From contig JARDVH010000128.1 of the NCBI GenBank assembly GCA_030324005.1, positions 31,519,565 to 31,583,564 on the forward strand: a DNA stretch of 64,000 nucleotides. Direction: 5' to 3'. Positions 13,303 through 52,800 of this stretch are shown piece by piece. The stretch comes from Negaprion brevirostris. Taxonomy: Eukaryota. Both the position numbers and the translations under genes were made by a program. The notes beneath the pieces are model-generated. The model did not search any database and was not told the origin of the DNA. It was given only the letters and a program-made list of their open reading frames with translations. Positions within the stretch are counted from its first letter, which is position 1. The number at the start of each line of letters is the position of its first letter.

Positions 13303-13649
13303 AATGCATTCATGGGATATGGACATCACTGGCTGGCCAGCATTTATTGCCAATCCCTACTTGCCCTTGGAGGCCAGTTGAGAGTCAACCATATTGCTGT
13401 GGTTCTGGAGTCACATGTAGGCCAGACCGGGTAAGGACAGCAGATTTCCTTCCCAAAGAAAAGGGAACCAAAAGGATTTTTCTGACAATTGGCTCAAGGT
13501 CAATAGTAGATTCTTAATTCCAGTTTTTTTTTATTGAATTCAAATTCCACCATCTGCCATGGCAAGATTCGAACCCGCATCCCCAGGACATTATCTGAGC
13601 TTCTGGATTAATAATCTAGCGATTATACCGTTAGGCCATTGCTTCCCCA
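13303..13649 (-). mobile_element. tRNA-derived SINE sharing its tail with the LINE at 11215-11975
   Basis: Minus-strand head tggcctaacggtata...gggttcgaatc. Tail ggcaataaatgctggccagccagtgatgtccatatcccatgaatg is also seen at 29910-30055 (-), ~57590-57645 (+) and ~11925-11975 (+). Confidence 0.65.
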
Positions 13650-14041
13650 TCATTCAAGAATGATTTTTGGAAGAATGTAAAGGTAAAATCTTGAGCACTA
13701 GGAAATACATGTAGAATAGGTCATTCTATGATAGAATACACTATCAGGATCTCCCAATGTAATCATCTTCAGCTATTTTGTTTTACACTTAGCATTTGAA
13801 CCTGTAATTCATATGGACAATTAATGGACAGGCATTAAATCTTAAAGCACGTATGCACAAAATCTGAGGTGCAGCCCACCTCCATGTTAACTGCTCCACT
13901 TTGCTCATTGAATATCACATTAGATTCTTTCTGATCCTCACTTTCCAGTGAACTACTATTACTATACCTTCCCCTCCTATTCCCAGTTCTAGGTACCCAA
14001 TTGTCATGTTGATGAGAATTGGGAGAAATGCAAGACTAAAC

Positions 14042-14289
14042 TGTGATAACTCTCATGACGTCCATGAAGAATTACTATTATTCTTGCTGCGGGACCCATT
14101 GAGTATACATTCCCCTGGTAACAGGCCAGGAACTCATTACCTACACCTTTTATAAGGCAGGCCCCAGACTATGTTGACTGAACTTCAGTATCAGTCAGGG
14201 ACTAGTAAGTGTACACCACGGTAGTGGTTTCAATTTGCATTCTGCAATAAATTGTATACTCCTCCTGTCAGGCTTCCTGAGTCGTTACA
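14042..14289 (+). repeat. 5' LTR of the Gypsy element, followed by a primer-binding site
   Basis: TGTGATAAC...TCGTTACA termini, internal TATAAG and AATAAA, immediately followed by PBS-like TGGTGATGAGG (14291-14301). Shares blocks with 19954-20192. Confidence 0.8.
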
Positions 14290-16417
14290 TTGGTGATGAG
14301 GAACAAGAATTTTCTTTCAATGAACCCGGTAAAATCATGATAGGGAGATATTGAAAATTCCACTGTTTGGGAAACTGGAATCTTATGATGCAGATATGAA
14401 AGATTGGCCCCAGTACTCTGAAAAAAATTAAATATTTCTTCGCGGCAAATGGGATAGAAGGGACAACTGGCAAAAAGCCAACCTCCTGACTGCTTGTGGG
14501 GCTCCAATTTTCAGCATCATAAAACGTTTAACCTACCTGGCAGCCCCAGATTCAAAATCTTTTGACTAATTGATAAATGTGATATCAGACCATTATGATT
14601 CTAACCGTCTGAAATATTGCAAAACTACAGGTTTAACACAGCAAATAGACCGCCTGGGGAACCAATCACTGAATTATTAATGAGATTGTGAAAACTGGGG
14701 GAACACTGAGTACAGGTCACCACTTCCAGAGATGTTAAGGGATCATTTAGTATGTAGAATTAATAACATTGCGACCCAAAGGAAGATACTGAATTAACTC
14801 TGGACCTGAAGAAAGCCATAGAACTGGCTTTCCCATGAAAACGCAGAAAAGGGGGCTCAGGAGCTTCAGGGTACCATTCTCAGCCTTGGGCGACTCCCTT
14901 ACCAAGTCCCCAGGGGATAACACTCACGTCTTCCATTTGCTGTAAGAAAGGGCAATTGGAGTTGGAGGCCATGAGATTCCAGATCCAGTCGGGAATTCTC
15001 CCCATAATACAGTAAGGAGCGAACACATCCGCACTCCACTTGTCATCATAGCGTCTGCCCTAGACAAAGCTACCAAAATAGGCAAAATAAGTACCACCAA
15101 GGCCAAAGGGCATTTGTAAAGCCCTCAGAATAGGGCTTTACAAGTAGACCAACCTAAGAATGAGGAATTGATGCAGCTAAATTGTATTGCCTCACCCAAG
15201 GTGTCTCCAATCAAGACTAAAATCCATGTGAATGACCATCGCTGGACATGGAGGTAGACACACGAGCTGCTTTACCAAGTACTCAGAGTCGGTGCAGACT
15301 TAATGGGCTGAATGACCTTTTCTGTACTGTAGGAATTCCATTCCATTAATCTTGCCTCTAAGCCTGCACGTATCAAGGCTAGATTGGCCACATACACTGT
15401 GGAGCCCTTGCATATTGTTGGCACCACTGTAATCCCAGTTACACAGGGGCTACGGACAGTCCAAATCTCCCTACCAGTGGTGCAAGAACAGGGCCCAGCC
15501 TTTTGAGAAGTGACTGGCAACAGAAAATCTACCTGGATTGGCAACAGACCTTTAAAATGGCAATTTATACAATGCTTTTGGGAAGTATCCCAAAGTGTCC
15601 CAAGAAGCCTCAGGAAAATTAGAAGTGGTAGGGTCAAGATCCATGTGGACCCAGAGGCCGGACCGAAATACTTCAAAGCACAACCAGTTCCCTATGCCCT
15701 ACATACCAATGGCTGAATTGGAATATCCAAAAGAACTTGGCATTACATACTCAGTATAATTTGCTGAACGGGCTGCACCAGTAGTCCCAGTTTTAAAACC
15801 TGGCAATTCAGTCCATCTCTTTGGGGATTATAAATTGATGATCAACAGAGCCTCCCATTTAGACAAATACTCTTTGCCATGCATAGAATATTTGTATGTA
15901 AAAACTGGCTGGGGGTCATGTTTTCTATATTAGACATGAGCCATACCTACCTTCACCTGGAGCTTGAGGTGTCATCCAGATAGTATGTCGTCATAAATAC
16001 TCACAAAAGACTTTGAGTTTGCCCCTTGGAATGTCTTCATATTGCACCATTTATCAAAGGGTGATGGAGAATACCTTTCAAGGGGTGCCCAGAGTGGTAT
16101 TCTATCTGGATGACATTTTAATCTCAGCTACTACACAAGAACGTTTGGAGGAAGTCTGGTGACTTTTTTCTGATGCTGGCATCTGATTTAAAAAGGGAAA
16201 AATGTGTGCTCCAGGTCTGCACTGTAGGAATTCTAGCTTGTAGGTAACATATCTTGCATTCCACTGGCCATGTGCACGCATAGTCCCATCACTCAGCCAG
16301 CTGTGTGCAGGCACGGTTCTCAGACCCCGTCTTCATGCCAGCCATGCGCAAGCGCTGTCCCCAAGTTCCATCACCCCACCAGCTGTGCACAGGCACAATT
16401 CGCAGGCCGAGGGCAAG

Positions 16418-17208
16418 ATGGTGGCCAGGCAGCAGCAGGAGGAAGAGGAGGATGACTACATGTTGGACACTTTTATCAATTTATAGCAAGATTCCAAACC
16501 ATGGCTAGTGATGGTCAGAAGAGTGAAAAAAGAAATCCTGAGGAAAGATCATGCACTGGAAATAATCCTGGAAAACAAGCAGAAGAGCAAAAAGGAAGAA
16601 GAGAAGAAAAGACATGAGACCATGTTACAGAGCTCATTGGGAAGTGAAAAAAAGGGATTTGTGTTACTTCAGAAAATGGGGTATAAGGAAGATTGTGGTC
16701 TTGGAAAAAGTGGAAATGGAATGTCGAACCTATTCCACTACAGATCAAGGTGGGACATGGTGGAATTGGCCATGAGGCTGCTGACAAATGGGAAGCTGAT
16801 GAAATGACAACAGCGCAAATGAATGTCACAAGTGAAAAAACGAGCAGGGGAATTAGCCCTTAATAAATATAGACTGCAGGTCAGACAAAAAAAGGATCAA
16901 CGTCAGATTGAAGGAGATCCAAGGAACAGCCAGCTTACCTGTCAACAGCTAAACACACAGAAGGGTGCAGCTGTCCCACAAGAAACATAGTATATGTTGT
17001 CCACTCCTGTTAAAAATGATGGAACATAGGTGGAAGAAGAATCAAGCAAATGGGATTATAAAACAGTTGCCACAACTGAAGAAAAGCTGCTGAATTTGAC
17101 CGGCTATGCAGAAGCAAATTCTTCTACTGTGTCTGGTGTGTGATTTCTTACCAAGGCAAGGACTTCTCTGATAACTGTCCTGGGTATTTTGCTGCCAACC
17201 ACGGCTGA
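16418..17208 (+). pseudogene. GPATCH11: Intronless (processed-type) pseudogene of G-patch domain protein 11 (CCDC75)
   Basis: Colinear with the whole protein: N-term EEEEDDYMLDTFIN, G-patch LGSEKKGFVLLQKMGYKEDCGLGKSGNG/VEPIPLQIKVGHGGIGHE, EGDPRNSQLTCQQL, C-term FYCVWCVISYQGKDFSDNCPG...HG*. Contains in-frame stops and frameshifts and no introns. Confidence 0.9.
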
Positions 17209-17520
17209 CTGACCCAAGGGCAGTGCAGAACAGAGCCAGTCTGCTGTAACTGGAGCAGACCGAATGCAAACCAATTTGCAAAGTCCAGTTGGCAATTCGA
17301 AGCCAAATGCTGGTTGTGGCATAGTGCGTTATGGCTTGTATTCGGAAGATATCAGATGCCACTTCTACAGTGACCATGGCCATTTTTCATCTTTGCGAGC
17401 TTCTTGACTGACAGGCAACTGTTCACATAAAATATTCGCACTTCCATCACTTAATTTTGAAAGTATCTGTATATTCATTGAGCTGTATTAAGTGTGGCTT
17501 TGTTTACCTGAAAACAACTC

Positions 17521-17826
17521 ATGGCACAGTGGTTAGCACTGCTACCACACACCGCTGGGGACCCAGGTTCAATTCTGGCCTTGGGTCACTGTCTATGTGA
17601 AGTTTGCACTTTCTCCGTGTCTGCCTGGGTTCCCTAAGGGTATTCCAGTTTTCTCCCACAGTCCAAAGATGTGTGGGTTAGGTTGATTGACCATGCTAAA
17701 TTGACCATACTGTCAAGGGATTGACAGGGTAAATGCGTGGGTTGCGGGAATAGAGCCTGGGTGGGATTGTGGTTGGTGTAGATTCAATGGCCTGAATGGC
17801 CTCCTTCTGCACTGTAGGGATTCTAT
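17521..17826 (+). mobile_element. Full-length HE1-type tRNA-derived SINE
   Basis: A-box tggcacagtggttagcactgct, B-box ggttcaattc, central gaagtttgcac...cagtccaaagatgtg, CR1-like tail aatggcctccttctgcactgtagggattcta. Confidence 0.85.
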
Positions 17827-19953
17827 AGGTTACAGAGTTGACAAGGTTGGATTACACCTTGGTGAAAAGAAGGTGAAAGCCACAAAATGGGTTCTAACTG
17901 CAAGAATCACAACAGAGCCGAAGTCTTTCCTAGTCTCACAAATTAATATGGGAAATTCACACTGAATTTGGCTGGTACCCCTCCATATAGTTTTTTTAAA
18001 ACAAAATCAAAAATGGTTGTGGTAAATGCCACAAGCGAGTACCTTTGCAAATATCAAACAACAATTGCTATCAGCAAATATACTAGCCCATTATGGCCCC
18101 ACGACCACTTATTGTAACCTATGACGTCTTCCCCTCTGCGATTGGAGAGGTATTCATCTCACCATTGGGATGATGGCACAGAAGGTCCAATCATGTATGT
18201 AGGGTGAACCCTGGCAGATGCAGTGAAGTATGCCCAGATTGAAGAAGGAGGTTTGGCCATGACGTTTGCAATGATAAAGTTCCATTAGAATGTCTACAGT
18301 TGGCATTTCACCATAGTAACCGATCACAAACCTCTGTGGGCCACTTCAAGGAAGACAAAGTGATTCCTCCCATCACATCAGCCTGGATTCAGTTCTGGAT
18401 ACTGCTGTTAGGTGCCTATGCATATACTTTTGAAACCCATCCAGAGAGACATATAACCAACTTTGAGTTGCCTGCCACTATCCACTAGCCTACCTTCTCC
18501 TCCAAAGATGGATGAAGTTATCATGACTCTGAACTTCATGGACACTCTGCCAGTACCTGCCAAGCAAATCCAAGCATGGGTCCAAAGGGACCCTATGTTG
18601 GTGAAACTACATCACATCGTCCTAAGTGGTGGACCACAATGGCATCCTACGGAGGATTTGAAACCTTATCTCCTAAATATCAGGAGATGAGTATAGAAGA
18701 ATGCATCACCTTGTGGGAGCCCGAGTGATTGTCCTGCATCCAGGCCAGTGACCGATACTTGAAGGATTGCACAATGGTCATCCAAGAATTTCTAAAATGA
18801 AAATGCTCGCATGGAACTACGTCTGGTGGCCTGGCTTAGACAGTGATATCGAAAACCTAGTCAAGCGGTGCAAAACTTGGCTGGAAAACCAAAAGGCCCC
18901 ACCAGCAACCTCATAACATCCTTGGGAATGGCCAGGGAAACACTGAGTGCAAATACGTGCAGATGTTGCAGAGCCATTTACGGGCTCCATGTTTTTAATT
19001 CTCTTTGACACCTATTATAAAAGAAACGAAGTACACCGAATGGCCTGTACCATCTCTAACAATACCATAGCTAAACTCTGTTAATCGTTTAATACATGTG
19101 GTATACCCAAGGTCTTCATGACACATAACAGGACCCTGTTTACCAGCAGGGAGTTTCACATTTTCATGAGTACAAAGTAAGACACATCCGCACACCATCC
19201 CACCACCCGTCCTCAAATGGCCTAGCTGAGCGAGCAGTCCAGACATGCAAAAGTGGCATGAAGAAAAAAACCACAGGTTCTCTGGAAAAAAACTCAAGTT
19301 TCCTTCACAACTATAGGACTGTGCCACGTAAGAAGACAGGAATAGCCCTGGCAGAGCTGTTGATGAGCTGATGCTTCAGACTAGGGTTAGCATGGCGTTC
19401 CCAACATTGGATGGTAACTTTGAGCTAAAACAAGAAGCCCAGAAAAGGGGCCGTGACAATTGAGGCCAGTTAGAAACTTCAAACCAGGAGATACAGTCCA
19501 CGTGAGGAACTTCAACAACAGATCTCTGTGGATTCCAGGAGTTATTCTTGAGAAAACAGGACCAGTGTCTTATAAAGTAAAAACCAGGTAAAAGACCTTA
19601 AAAAAGCTCGTACATCACCTCCATTAGAGAGAATCCTCCGCAAAGGCAACTGTGCCTACGGACACACCACCGTCTGCGTACTTTACACCAGCCTGTGCAT
19701 GGGAAGCCCCACCCTCTAAAAACTCTGACTTGCACATGGAGACAGAGGTGATGGACACCCAGTCAAACGTTGCCACCAAGGATGAGCTCCCATGTAGTGG
19801 CTCTTTGATGCTCTTCATAGAAGAGGCATTCACCTATCCATTACGAGCCCCAAACAGACCATACAAGCAACGAAAATGAGGCCACTGACAAAGAGACAGA
19901 GAAGACTCTATCATCATGGGAAACCTTCGGACTCGGTGGGGGTGGGGGGAATA

Positions 19954-20192
19954 CGGTTTATAACCCCCCACAAGATCCATGGGGAATCACTGATTGATGT
20001 TTGTGTAGGGCTCGGTGAGTATGAGCTCCCTGGGTAGCAGGCAATGGTCAGCTGGAACTTCTTATCAAATGTCTTATAAGGCAGGCAGGACTGGGCCTGC
20101 TGAATTGTTGTGTGAACACCACAGTGGTGGTTTTACTTTGCGTCCTGTAATAAACTATGTTCCTTTTCAGTCGAGCTTTCTGAATCATTACA
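19954..20192 (+). repeat. 3' LTR of the Gypsy element, preceded by a polypurine tract
   Basis: G-rich PPT ggtgggggtggggggaa at ~19935-19951. Shares ttataaggcaggc, acaccac(g/a)gt(a/g)gtggttt, aataaa and terminal TTACA with the 5' LTR, but is strongly diverged. No clean TSD. Confidence 0.75.
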
Positions 20193-21996: not shown

Positions 21997-22839
<843 letters not shown>

Positions 22840-49849: not shown

Positions 49850-52800
49850 GAGTGGAATTCTCCCATACGGGACTAAGCCCTTATGGCAGCCACAGGGAGT
49901 GTTTCCCACTGCAGAGGGCAACAGGAAACCACACTATATCTTTCAGCCTCAACATCATTAATTATTCACCCAGGGATTTTGCACTGTCTACCATGGTGGG
50001 GTGTCATATCCAGGCACAATATTTGAAAAGGTGCCCAGACATCCTTATGTCAACACTAAGATGTCAGGAAAGGGAGGTGAAGGTCCAATGCCCAAGTTCA
50101 GTGACATAGACAATAGAACATTACAGCGCAGAACAGGCCCTTCGGCCCATGATGTTGCGCCGACCAATTAAAAAGCAATGACCCTCTAGCCTAAACCAAT
50201 CCCTTTCCATCCATAAACCTATCCGCGGATCTCTTAAACGCCCCCAAACTAGGCGCATTTACAACTGCAGCAGGCAGGGCATTCCAATCCCTCACCACCC
50301 TCNNNNNNNNNNNNNNNNNNNNNNNNNNNNNNNNNNNNNNNNNNNNNNNNNNNNNNNNNNNNNNNNNNNNNNNNNNNNNNNNNNNNNNNNNNNNNNNNNN
50401 NNGCCAAAGTGAATTACCTCACACTTTTCCACATTAAACTCCATCCGCCACCTCTCGGCCCAGCTCTGCAACTTGTCCATCAGCTCTGCAACATCTCCCT
50501 GCACGTCCTCCTTGACCATGTCGAGGTCAGGAGGAATGTACTCTACCCAGCTGATGGGAGAAGAGGCCCAGCAGGAAACCAATGCTACATGAGCATATGG
50601 TGCCAATGCTTAAGTGCCCAGGGGGTGCACAACCCAGTGCCAGAAGATGAATCATCATATTCACTCCTCCAGAGTAAGTCTTAAGAACGGTCGCATAATC
50701 CACAAAGACTCCAAAATGTAAGGATCCAAGAATTTGATTTATTATTGTCACAGGTATTGGTATGCAGTGCAAAGTATCGTTTCTTGCCTGCTATACTTAC
50801 AAAGCATTACCATTCATAGAAAAGGAAAGAAGAGGTTGCAGAATATACTGTTACAGTCATAGTTAGGGTGTAGAGAAAGATCAACTTAATATGAGGTAGG
50901 TCCATTCAAAAGTCCGAAGGCAGCAGGGAAGAAACTGTTCTTGAGTCACTTCGTATGACCAGTGGCAGCAACATGTTCTGTCTCACAGCCCTATCTCAGT
51001 ACATCCATACTGCAATGAAGTGACCATTTTTGTTTCCTTCACTCTTCAGTAGACATGGGATACTCAGGGAATTGGGTGGGTGAGAGGATAGATTGAAACC
51101 TGGCGCAGATGCAGACAGAACTAGCAACCTCCACAAATCAGATGCATCTATAAGCCTTCCCCTTGCATGTGAATATGCTCAGTTCTCCAGAGGACGCTGG
51201 TCCACAACCGTTCTGCCCAATTCATACCAGTGATGATAGTCCACTTGTGTTTGGCCAATCTTATGAGTACATTGTACCAAATTCCAATATTCCAACCAAT
51301 ATAACATGCAACTCCTCTCAAATATTCTCATCTTCGAGTAGGAGAGGTTTAATCATAATTGTGCCAAGCAGGTGAGGGGGGAGGGCACAAGAGCCATTGG
51401 CAATGGGAAACTTGGCCTTAAGCATCCACGAAGTAAGGATTTATTCATTACATGCGAACCTAGCAATCAAATGTGCCTCCGCCTCCATCTTGGAAGCAGC
51501 TGACACTGTCACTTGCATTATCCTTTCTCGCTTCATCATGTGTCCAGGAAGACATCAAGGCAAGGGGAAGAGGACTTTTCCCCCACTCCTTTCAAGCCCT
51601 GACCAGTCCAGAAAGAAGCCAGGAGGAAGCAGAAGAGAAAAACTTCACACCTTTAAAAGTCACAGCGCCCAATTGCACTCTCCCAACAGCTCAGGAACAC
51701 ACACCTCAGTGGGTTTTAGTACTAGCTCAACAAGGTTCTCACAATCTGGTGGGCTCACTATACTGTCCGGAGGAGGAGAAGACTTGTTCAGCTATGCTCC
51801 CCAGAACTCGCTGAACCAGAAGGCATCTGCAAGGTCCCAGTTTGATGAGCGTTGAATTGACTTCCCAACTCAAGGTGGAGAGTCAGCAAGAGGCGGGGCA
51901 ACATCAGACAGAGCTGTTGGATGCCCTGAACAGGGTGGCCCTGAGTCAGAGGAGTCTGTCCGCCTGACCTCTGATGAAGTAGTGATGAAATATACCTACC
52001 TTAAGATCTCCAAGGGGACATTGTGGAGATCCTGGTCTAGCAGAACACCTAGTTTCAGCTGAAGATGCATGCAGAGTTGCATTCCATTGCTATTGCCATG
52101 GGTGAGTTTGTGCAATGGCAACATGACAGCAGGATGGGGCATCTTGCATTCTTCCAGGTGCCCCTTCCCTTCAAAAGGTCAGGCTGAGGCCTTCAAACAC
52201 CCAAAGGGAGTAGGAGATGCAGCTAGAACCCCGGTTCATCCATTCAGGACTCTCAGATGTTGTATGCTTCCTCCAAATCCCCTCAACCTGTGACCCCTTC
52301 AACCTGTGACCCCTTCAACCTCATCCTCTGCAGAAGGAACTGCAGGCCCACCAGTGCAAAAAAAAAGAAATTTTGATTAGCTGTGGTCGCACAGGTGAAC
52401 TCTGTCAATAAATAATGTCTAGTGTTGTCTTTTGGCATTATTATATAGGCTTTGCGAGACCTCCACCATTATCCTCCCACAACATTCGCAGTTCAGCTGC
52501 ACATAGCCACAGCACATATAATTTTGGAGGAAGACGTGACTGTGGCAGGGGCTTACACACCTACCCACATACACACTTAATTTTTATTCCTCCCTCCCTA
52601 ACTCCATCCCCTCACTGAACTCTCTCCCTTACACCTTCCTCCTCCAAACTTGTTCCCTATTACACTTATCTCCCCACTTGCATCTTTCACTCCCATTACC
52701 CCTTCCTCCCTACTGACACCATTTCCGTTTATGGTCTCTATTCCCCGCCAGGTTCACTCTCCCAACACCTTCACCCCCACCTCCCACCTTAATCCACCCT

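What the first reader, a model, noticed from the sequence alone, without database searches (positions are those of the whole stretch)
16255..17827. GPATCH11 retrocopy ending in a full SINE instead of poly(A): possible SINE-tail-licensed gene retroduplication by CR1 machinery
Seen in sequence: the Gypsy RT reads ...KREKCV..VTYL (ends ~16254) and resumes exactly as GYRVDK at 17828. Everything in between is 5' leader + intronless GPATCH11 CDS + ~300 bp 3'UTR-like sequence + one complete same-strand HE1 SINE, whose tail forms the right junction. No poly(A) run is visible. Established: CR1-clade RTs prefer their own 3' tail rather than poly(A), and shark HE1 SINEs share their tail with a CR1-like LINE (HER1). 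Inference: the mRNA was mobilised through the SINE tail, either because the parent 3'UTR carries an HE1 copy or through template switching from SINE RNA to mRNA during target-primed reverse transcription. This would give CR1-dominated genomes a route to gene retrocopies.
Basis: partly seen in the sequence, partly recalled or inferred. Interest (0 to 1): 0.8.

Follow-up and report, generated by a model that had tools for sequence, protein, structure and literature searches.

The report
GPATCH11 retrocopy fused to a SINE
A dead, intron-free copy of the GPATCH11 gene in what appears to be a shark genome stops part-way through its untranslated tail and runs straight into a short jumping element that the parent gene lacks, likely because a reverse transcriptase started on that element's RNA and carried on along the messenger RNA, a side route to gene copies that looks rare in this genome.

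Summary
16255-17519 is a processed, dead copy of an 8-exon GPATCH11 gene on another contig. It ends inside the 3'UTR, without poly(A), and joins a same-strand tRNA-headed SINE (17520-17826, about 10 nt short at its 5' end) whose tail abuts the resumed Gypsy sequence with at most 1 nt gained or lost. SINE (10% from its subfamily) and retrocopy (11% at non-synonymous sites) are equally old; the host Gypsy is about twice as old, which argues against LTR capture. Best reading: one CR1-type insertion primed on the SINE tail, joined to the mRNA by template switching or RNA ligation (0.7). The wider claim is weak: of 22 ribosomal-protein retrocopies, 14 reach the poly(A) site and 1 abuts a sense SINE, with its far end in an assembly gap. 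Such chimeras are published for U6 with L2-type SINEs and for mRNA with LINE-1; six searches showed none for mRNA with a CR1-type SINE. This scan noted similar cases in other genomes (unchecked). The locus also seems transcribed.

The parts
14042..14289 (+). 5' LTR of the host Gypsy-type element (approximate start)
   Evidence: 72 of 226 aligned sites differ from the 3' LTR
14290..16254 (+). Decayed Gypsy internal region, up to the insertion point in the RT region
   Evidence: 39 other matches at 74-83%; many stops
16216..16235 (+). Separate 20-nt SINE-tail fragment, 19 nt left of the main insert
   Evidence: 19 of 20 identical to 17806-17825; absent from other Gypsy copies
16255..16417 (+). 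GPATCH11 5' leader (about 41-nt repeats, CpG-decayed)
   Evidence: aligns to the parent's region upstream of the ATG
16418..17208 (+). Intronless, dead GPATCH11 coding sequence (stop at 16484-16486, later frameshifts)
   Evidence: differences by codon position 27/230, 25/230, 30/232
17209..17519 (+). First 311 nt of the parent's 3'UTR; match ends at 17519
   Evidence: 43 of 297 sites differ; parent continues with non-SINE sequence (loose end)
17520..17826 (+). tRNA-headed SINE (HE1-like), about 10 nt short at the 5' end, CR1-type tail at the right junction
   Evidence: 31 of 305 sites differ from the majority of 29 nearest copies; tail resembles a CR1-like 3' end at window 50104-50300, minus strand
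17827..19955 (+). Decayed Gypsy internal region resumes (rest of RT region to integrase)
   Evidence: weak rve_3 match at 19129-19368
19956..20192 (+). 3' LTR of the host element (approximate start)

Best explanation
This is a dead, spliced copy of GPATCH11 joined to a SINE that its parent lacks, likely inserted in one event in which a CR1-type reverse transcriptase primed on the SINE's tail and then continued on the mRNA. Shown: splicing, 3' truncation, direct same-strand join, no poly(A), no target duplication over 1 nt, equal ages, older host element. Inferred: the enzyme nicked an already decaying Gypsy copy, copied the SINE RNA almost to its 5' end, moved to an internal point (or broken end) in the GPATCH11 3'UTR, and copied to the mRNA's 5' end. 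Whether the two RNAs were joined by template switching or were ligated before copying cannot be told from the sequence.
For: Parent has introns and no SINE at the junction or within the next 1 kb; the parent contig in run X15 also continues with non-SINE UTR behind 17519. The SINE fills exactly the interval between the mRNA end and the resumed target. Ages agree: SINE 31/305 = 10.2%, retrocopy 50/445 = 11.2% at non-degenerate sites (Fisher p = 0.72). LTR-LTR 72/226 = 32%, about 21% per side after correction, twice the insert's age. A sense SINE 5' end falls within 10 nt of a given point with probability about 0.0007 (56 such ends, both strands, in 402 kb). Contigs of organisms C, H and E (about 1.5%, 3% and 8% different) run from the retrocopy into the SINE start, by 31, 30 and 17 letters. 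A CR1-like 3' end with a related tail and hairpin lies in the same window. Precedent: U6 chimeras with Mon-1 and AnolisSINE2, with TSDs of only 1-9 bp (PMC4476161, passages); SINE-to-tRNA switch proposed under CR1 (PMC5729268, passages).
Against: No TSD brackets the whole insert, so single-event origin lacks its usual proof. The 0.0007 figure is not a fair p-value, because the case was picked for this feature. 3'-truncated retrocopies are common here (7 of 22), so a two-step history is possible in principle. A second SINE-tail piece sits 19 nt from the left end, so this site took more than one such insertion. Only organism C's contig meets the tool's 31-letter bridging rule. No empty orthologous site was seen. 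No clear microhomology at the mRNA/SINE join (2 nt unassigned). The CR1 label of the 50104-50300 piece rests on recalled motifs; Pfam gave no hit on its 36 aa.
Confidence: 0.7

Rival explanations
1. Lost allele: an ancestral GPATCH11 allele carried this SINE in its 3'UTR, the transcript was copied from the SINE tail, and the allele later disappeared.
For: The join lies in the 3'UTR, where an insertion is tolerated; the copy is full-length at its 5' end; SINE and retrocopy ages agree. Law and Burns leave the same possibility open for LINE-1 chimeras (10.1101/2025.02.02.635956, section 24).
Against: No SINE or scar in the parent of G000 or of run X15; copying would have to start inside the transcript or the transcript end at the SINE tail.
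Confidence: 0.14
2. Two independent insertions: a tailless 3'-truncated retrocopy and a SINE arrived at the same junction one after the other.
For: 7 of 22 other retrocopies stop short of the poly(A) site; a further SINE-tail piece at 16216-16235 shows the site is re-used, and both tails precede a similar 8-nt target word.
Against: Needs a hit within a few bases (about 0.0007 per 10 nt), no age gap, no TSD around either part, both parts together in three relatives.
Confidence: 0.12
3. LTR-mediated capture: the Gypsy reverse transcriptase switched onto SINE RNA and mRNA inside its particle.
For: The copy is flanked by one Gypsy element with two LTRs, is 3'-truncated and lacks poly(A) and TSD; a mouse case combining mRNAs and a SINE-type repeat is described (PMC5131818, passages).
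Against: In the Drosophila cases of that paper part of the element is always replaced; here nothing is lost. The LTRs differ by 32% while the insert is about 11% from its source; the LTR pair could however be a recombinant, since no TSD was found around it. Only one copy of the retrocopy was found.
Confidence: 0.04

Closest known systems
U6-Mon-1 and U6-L2 chimeras of platypus; U6-AnolisSINE2 chimeras of Anolis (Doucet et al. 2015, PMC4476161; passages read)
   Same: Cellular RNA at the 5' side, SINE of a stringent LINE at the 3' side, same strand, little or no TSD, no poly(A).
   Different: The passenger is a 1.26-kb spliced mRNA cut in its 3'UTR, not U6; the partner LINE is CR1-like, not L2.
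Human mRNA/LINE-1 5' chimeras, 17 in hg38 (Law and Burns, 10.1101/2025.02.02.635956; abstract and section 24 read)
   Same: mRNA from its 5' start fused in sense to a near-full-length retroelement that is absent from the parent gene.
   Different: LINE-1 is a relaxed, poly(A)-reading element with 14-17 bp TSDs; six of those joins fall on splice donors, this one falls inside the last exon.
PittSINE origin by template switch from a CR1-mobilised SINE to a tRNA (Suh et al. 2017, PMC5729268; passages)
   Same: Proposed switch off a CR1-type SINE RNA during target-primed reverse transcription.
   Different: Acceptor is a tRNA and the product became a new SINE; here a single dead gene copy.
LTR-mediated retrocopies (Tan et al. 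2016, PMC5131818; passages)
   Same: Partial mRNA inside an LTR element, no poly(A), no TSD.
   Different: No part of the element is replaced and the element is about twice as old as the insert.

Membership tests
Processed pseudogene | Introns of the parent precisely absent | tested here: met
   7 parent exon matches over 17 kb are contiguous in the window; the eighth (16874-16963) was not found in the gapped parent stretch but is an exon-sized match in contigs of three other runs
Processed pseudogene | Unlinked to the parent, decaying neutrally | tested here: met
   C128 versus C25; stop at codon 23, frameshifts; 27/25/30 differences at codon positions 1/2/3
LINE-1-type processed pseudogene | Poly(A) tail and 7-20 bp target duplication | tested here: not met
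Chimeric retrocopy (cellular RNA 5', retroelement 3') | Direct same-strand join, retroelement tail at the 3' junction | tested here: met
   join at 17519/17520, tail to 17826
Chimeric retrocopy (cellular RNA 5', retroelement 3') | Retroelement absent from the parent transcript | tested here: met
   present-day parent only
Chimeric retrocopy (cellular RNA 5', retroelement 3') | One target duplication around both parts | tested here: inconclusive
   0-1 nt; about a quarter of platypus L2-type chimeras also show none
Chimeric retrocopy (cellular RNA 5', retroelement 3') | Both parts arrive together in orthologous loci | tested here: inconclusive
   together in 3 of 4 organisms laid; no empty site seen; equal divergence
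LTR-mediated retrocopy | Part of the LTR element replaced by the mRNA | tested here: not met
   flanks are neighbours in 8 of 9 other copies examined
LTR-mediated retrocopy | Insert at least as old as the element's integration | tested here: not met
   LTR pair 32% apart, insert about 11%
LTR-mediated retrocopy | Microsimilarity at both switch points | not tested
   junctions inspected by eye only
HE1 (V-SINE) paired with HER1 | tRNA-derived head and a 3' tail shared with a CR1-type LINE | tested here: inconclusive
   A- and B-box-like words in 17522-17570 (motifs recalled); related but not identical tail on a CR1-like end; HE1/HER1 pairing listed in PMC3747384, table row seen
HE1 (V-SINE) paired with HER1 | Match to the published HE1 sequence and V-domain | not testable with these tools

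The most novel reading that the evidence does not exclude
SINE- or CR1-tail-primed chimeras are a recurring class of full-length gene retrocopies in cartilaginous fishes (a few percent of all retrocopies), showing that stringent CR1 machinery can duplicate arbitrary protein-coding mRNAs by starting on its own SINE; the RPL30 copy L164 would be a second case in this genome, and this GPATCH11 copy is also read as an antisense RNA from a neighbouring muscle gene.
Probability: 0.35. Interest if true: 0.65.

Novelty: new variant of a known kind. Interest (0 to 1): 0.45.

Why it matters
[quoted passage not shown] A clean mRNA-SINE chimera shows a concrete way for CR1-type machinery to copy a whole coding sequence and gives a countable signature (sense SINE or CR1 tail at the 3' junction, absent from the parent). 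In this genome it looks like a minority route, and this copy is dead.

Tried and rejected
DNA-level duplication: rejected, parent has introns. SINE in today's parent UTR: rejected. Alternative poly(A) signal just before 17519: none seen by eye in the parent. Organism B (run X7): a contig joins 29 letters of SINE tail to the orthologous right Gypsy flank, but no contig covers the retrocopy body at 83% likeness; about 4% of the run was unread and a filter drops records, so this hole is no evidence, only the place to look for a 'SINE-only' state. Run X9 (organism D) gave four short pieces, uninformative for the junctions. Family searches without recognisable retrocopies: RPL3 (10 matches; L113 and L114 are ordinary exons), 14-3-3 (22 matches, judged from the table), NAP (10 matches; L143 is an exon), SLU7 (5 matches), SDS3 (0 matches and a silent control). 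Ras (151 matches, 30 loci) was not evaluated for retrocopies. Rows dropped from the retrocopy count: L161, L163, L166, L167, L169, L170, L173, L180 (parent exons or other genes). L164's right end lies in a gap of about 8.5 kb and no RPL30 remainder was seen in the 19 kb beyond, itself partly gapped; since about 0.8 later sense SINE insertions are expected in 22 retrocopies of about 0.5 kb (from the density), it is a lead, not support. TSD scan: 2 of 13 poly(A)-site copies gave 13-nt repeats above control, with rough boundaries. A search for a longer LINE sharing the SINE's tail in 634 kb of fetched DNA gave no cluster, only the one short piece. Suh 2015 (PMID 26223967) is not held and is cited only through the review.
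Full report
Observation. The window at 16255-17519 matches a gene on another contig in seven exon-sized pieces spread over 17 kb, with GT/AG ends, and no other copy was found. The copy carries a G-patch domain and the parent's exons carry G-patch and DUF4187, the pair I recall for GPATCH11. One 90-nt exon (16874-16963) is missing from the fetched parent stretch, which has several N runs, but appears as an exon-sized match in contigs of three other runs. The copy has the 5' leader, ATG at 16418, a stop at codon 23, later frameshifts, the normal stop at 17206-17208 and 311 nt of 3'UTR. Differences from the parent are even across codon positions (27/230, 25/230, 30/232), as expected for a copy that was dead early.

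The joins. The match to the parent ends at 17519. The parent goes on with ordinary UTR sequence and an AATAAA about 500 nt later; the nearest downstream SINE match is 1 kb away and on the other strand. A parent contig in run X15 shows the same non-SINE continuation behind 17519. In the window two unassigned bases follow, then the SINE from 17522; it lacks about 10 nt of the 5' end, like roughly half of its 29 nearest copies. Its tail ends at 17826. In 8 of 9 other Gypsy copies examined on the plus strand (10 minus-strand loci were not examined) the sequences left of 16255 and right of 17826 are neighbours, so the insert caused no loss and at most a 1-nt duplication.

Ages. SINE against the majority of its 29 nearest copies: 31/305 = 10.2% (a multiple alignment with ragged ends gave 41/313). 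Retrocopy against parent: 82/692 in the coding part (one site is an artefact of my exon boundary), 50/445 = 11.2% at non-degenerate sites, where most change should lie on the pseudogene branch, and 43/297 in the UTR. The first two do not differ (p = 0.72). The host element's LTRs differ at 72/226 sites, about 21% per side after correction, and its other copies are 68-83% alike over longer matches. So the Gypsy copy was likely resident and decaying when the insert arrived; no TSD was found around the LTR pair, so a recombinant pair is not excluded.

Relatives. Twenty runs hold part of the stretch. Contigs of organisms C, H and E run from the retrocopy into the SINE start by 31, 30 and 17 letters, at about 1.5%, 3% and 8% difference; contigs of C, H, E and B join 26-29 letters of SINE tail to the right Gypsy flank. 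Only the first meets the tool's 31-letter rule. No retrocopy without the SINE and no empty site was seen. E's contig over 16188-16468 is 20 letters shorter than the window; if those are the SINE-tail piece (position not shown), that piece came later than the main insert.

Machinery. At window 50104-50300 (minus strand) a CR1-like coding end is followed by a tail that aligns with the SINE's last 55 nt; both are predicted to fold a hairpin. The CR1 label rests on recalled motifs; Pfam gave nothing on 36 aa. A review table lists HE1 of sharks and rays as a tRNA-headed V-SINE partnered with HER1 (PMC3747384, passages and that row); I could not compare sequences.

How common. Eight family searches were meant to collect retrocopies plus one more. 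They gave 22 intronless copies: RPS3A 5, RPL30 8, RPS12 6, RPL7A 1, RPLP1 1, RPLP2 1 (for RPS12, RPLP1 and RPLP2 the parent was not seen, so retrocopy status is inferred, and these gene names are recalled from the translations). Fourteen reach a poly(A) signal, mostly with an A-rich run; 7 stop short; 1 is unclear. One of the 7, an RPL30 copy (L164), ends inside the coding sequence and abuts a sense SINE starting about 19 nt into the majority sequence, with about 3 nt shared at the join, but the SINE runs into a gap of about 8.5 kb, and later SINE insertions inside retrocopies are expected at about that rate (an antisense one sits inside L096). The other six are not directly followed by this SINE. 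So the genome makes ordinary retrocopies by some poly(A)-tolerant route, and the SINE-primed route is at most a minority.

Mechanism. Most likely one target-primed event: priming on the SINE tail at the right junction, copying to near the SINE's 5' end, then continuing on GPATCH11 mRNA from inside its 3'UTR to its 5' end (0.7). Template switching and prior RNA ligation give the same product; ligation of U6 to other RNAs by RtcB is reported (PMC6789731, search listing and start of abstract only). Rivals: lost SINE-bearing allele (0.14), two insertions at one junction (0.12), LTR capture (0.04).

Literature. U6 chimeras with SINEs of stringent LINEs are described in platypus and Anolis (PMC4476161, passages); mRNA/LINE-1 chimeras in human (10.1101/2025.02.02.635956, abstract and section 24); a switch from a CR1-type SINE to a tRNA in birds (PMC5729268, passages); 5' additions to crocodilian SINEU (PMC4494074, passages); LTR capture (PMC5131818, passages). 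Six searches of the open library listed no report of a protein-coding mRNA fused to a CR1-type SINE; subscription papers, Suh 2015 among them, and all supplements were not seen, and the preprint's supplements on shark retrocopies may bear on this. Earlier notes of this scan describe METTL6, MTFR1 and SFR1 cases in other genomes; I did not check them, and they are not independent proof. No note matched this sequence or place.

Transcription. Run X15 (43 million letters of contigs, kind not on record) holds a contig of the spliced parent and also exact copies of the retrocopy locus, one reaching about 2.5 kb left of 16100, past the 5' LTR. It is therefore likely an RNA run in which this locus is transcribed; contigs show neither strand nor level. 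A DUF5600/sarcalumenin-like last exon ends at 21997 on the minus strand, so read-through antisense to GPATCH11 is the likely source (inferred).

Verdict. Real and clean, a new variant of the known chimeric-retrocopy kind; a dead copy made by a probably rare route. Interest 0.45.

Noticed in passing
window 13533-17530 (run X15 contigs): The retrocopy locus, Gypsy included, is present letter for letter in a small contig set that also holds the spliced parent mRNA; likely transcribed, probably as antisense read-through from the sarcalumenin-like gene ending at 21997 (minus).
   Followed up: partly
window 16216-16235: A 20-nt SINE-tail piece 19 nt left of the main insert; both tails precede a similar 8-nt target word. 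Either a second, heavily truncated insertion or a local templated copy of the right junction; possibly absent in organism E.
   Followed up: partly
L164 = G000:C179:7892678-7895857 (minus): RPL30 retrocopy cut inside its coding sequence and joined to a sense SINE that runs into a gap of about 8.5 kb: candidate second chimera.
   Followed up: partly
L097, L098, L099, L154, L156, L165: Six other ribosomal-protein retrocopies stop short of the poly(A) site with no tail: tailless retrocopies seem common in this genome.
   Followed up: partly
L160, L162: 13-nt direct repeats around two poly(A)-site retrocopies, suggesting an L1/Tx1-type enzyme.
   Followed up: no
Retrocopy numbers are uneven: RPL30 8, RPS12 6, RPS3A 5, but none recognised for RPL3, 14-3-3 or NAP.
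   Followed up: no
L009 9367-9706 (parent 5' region): About 41-nt CpG-rich repeats ahead of the ATG and a splice-donor-like word on the opposite strand suggest a shared head-to-head promoter (neighbour recalled as HEATR5B in human).
   Followed up: no
window 50104-50300 (minus): CR1-like 3' end with a tail related to the SINE's; cut by an N run.
   Followed up: partly
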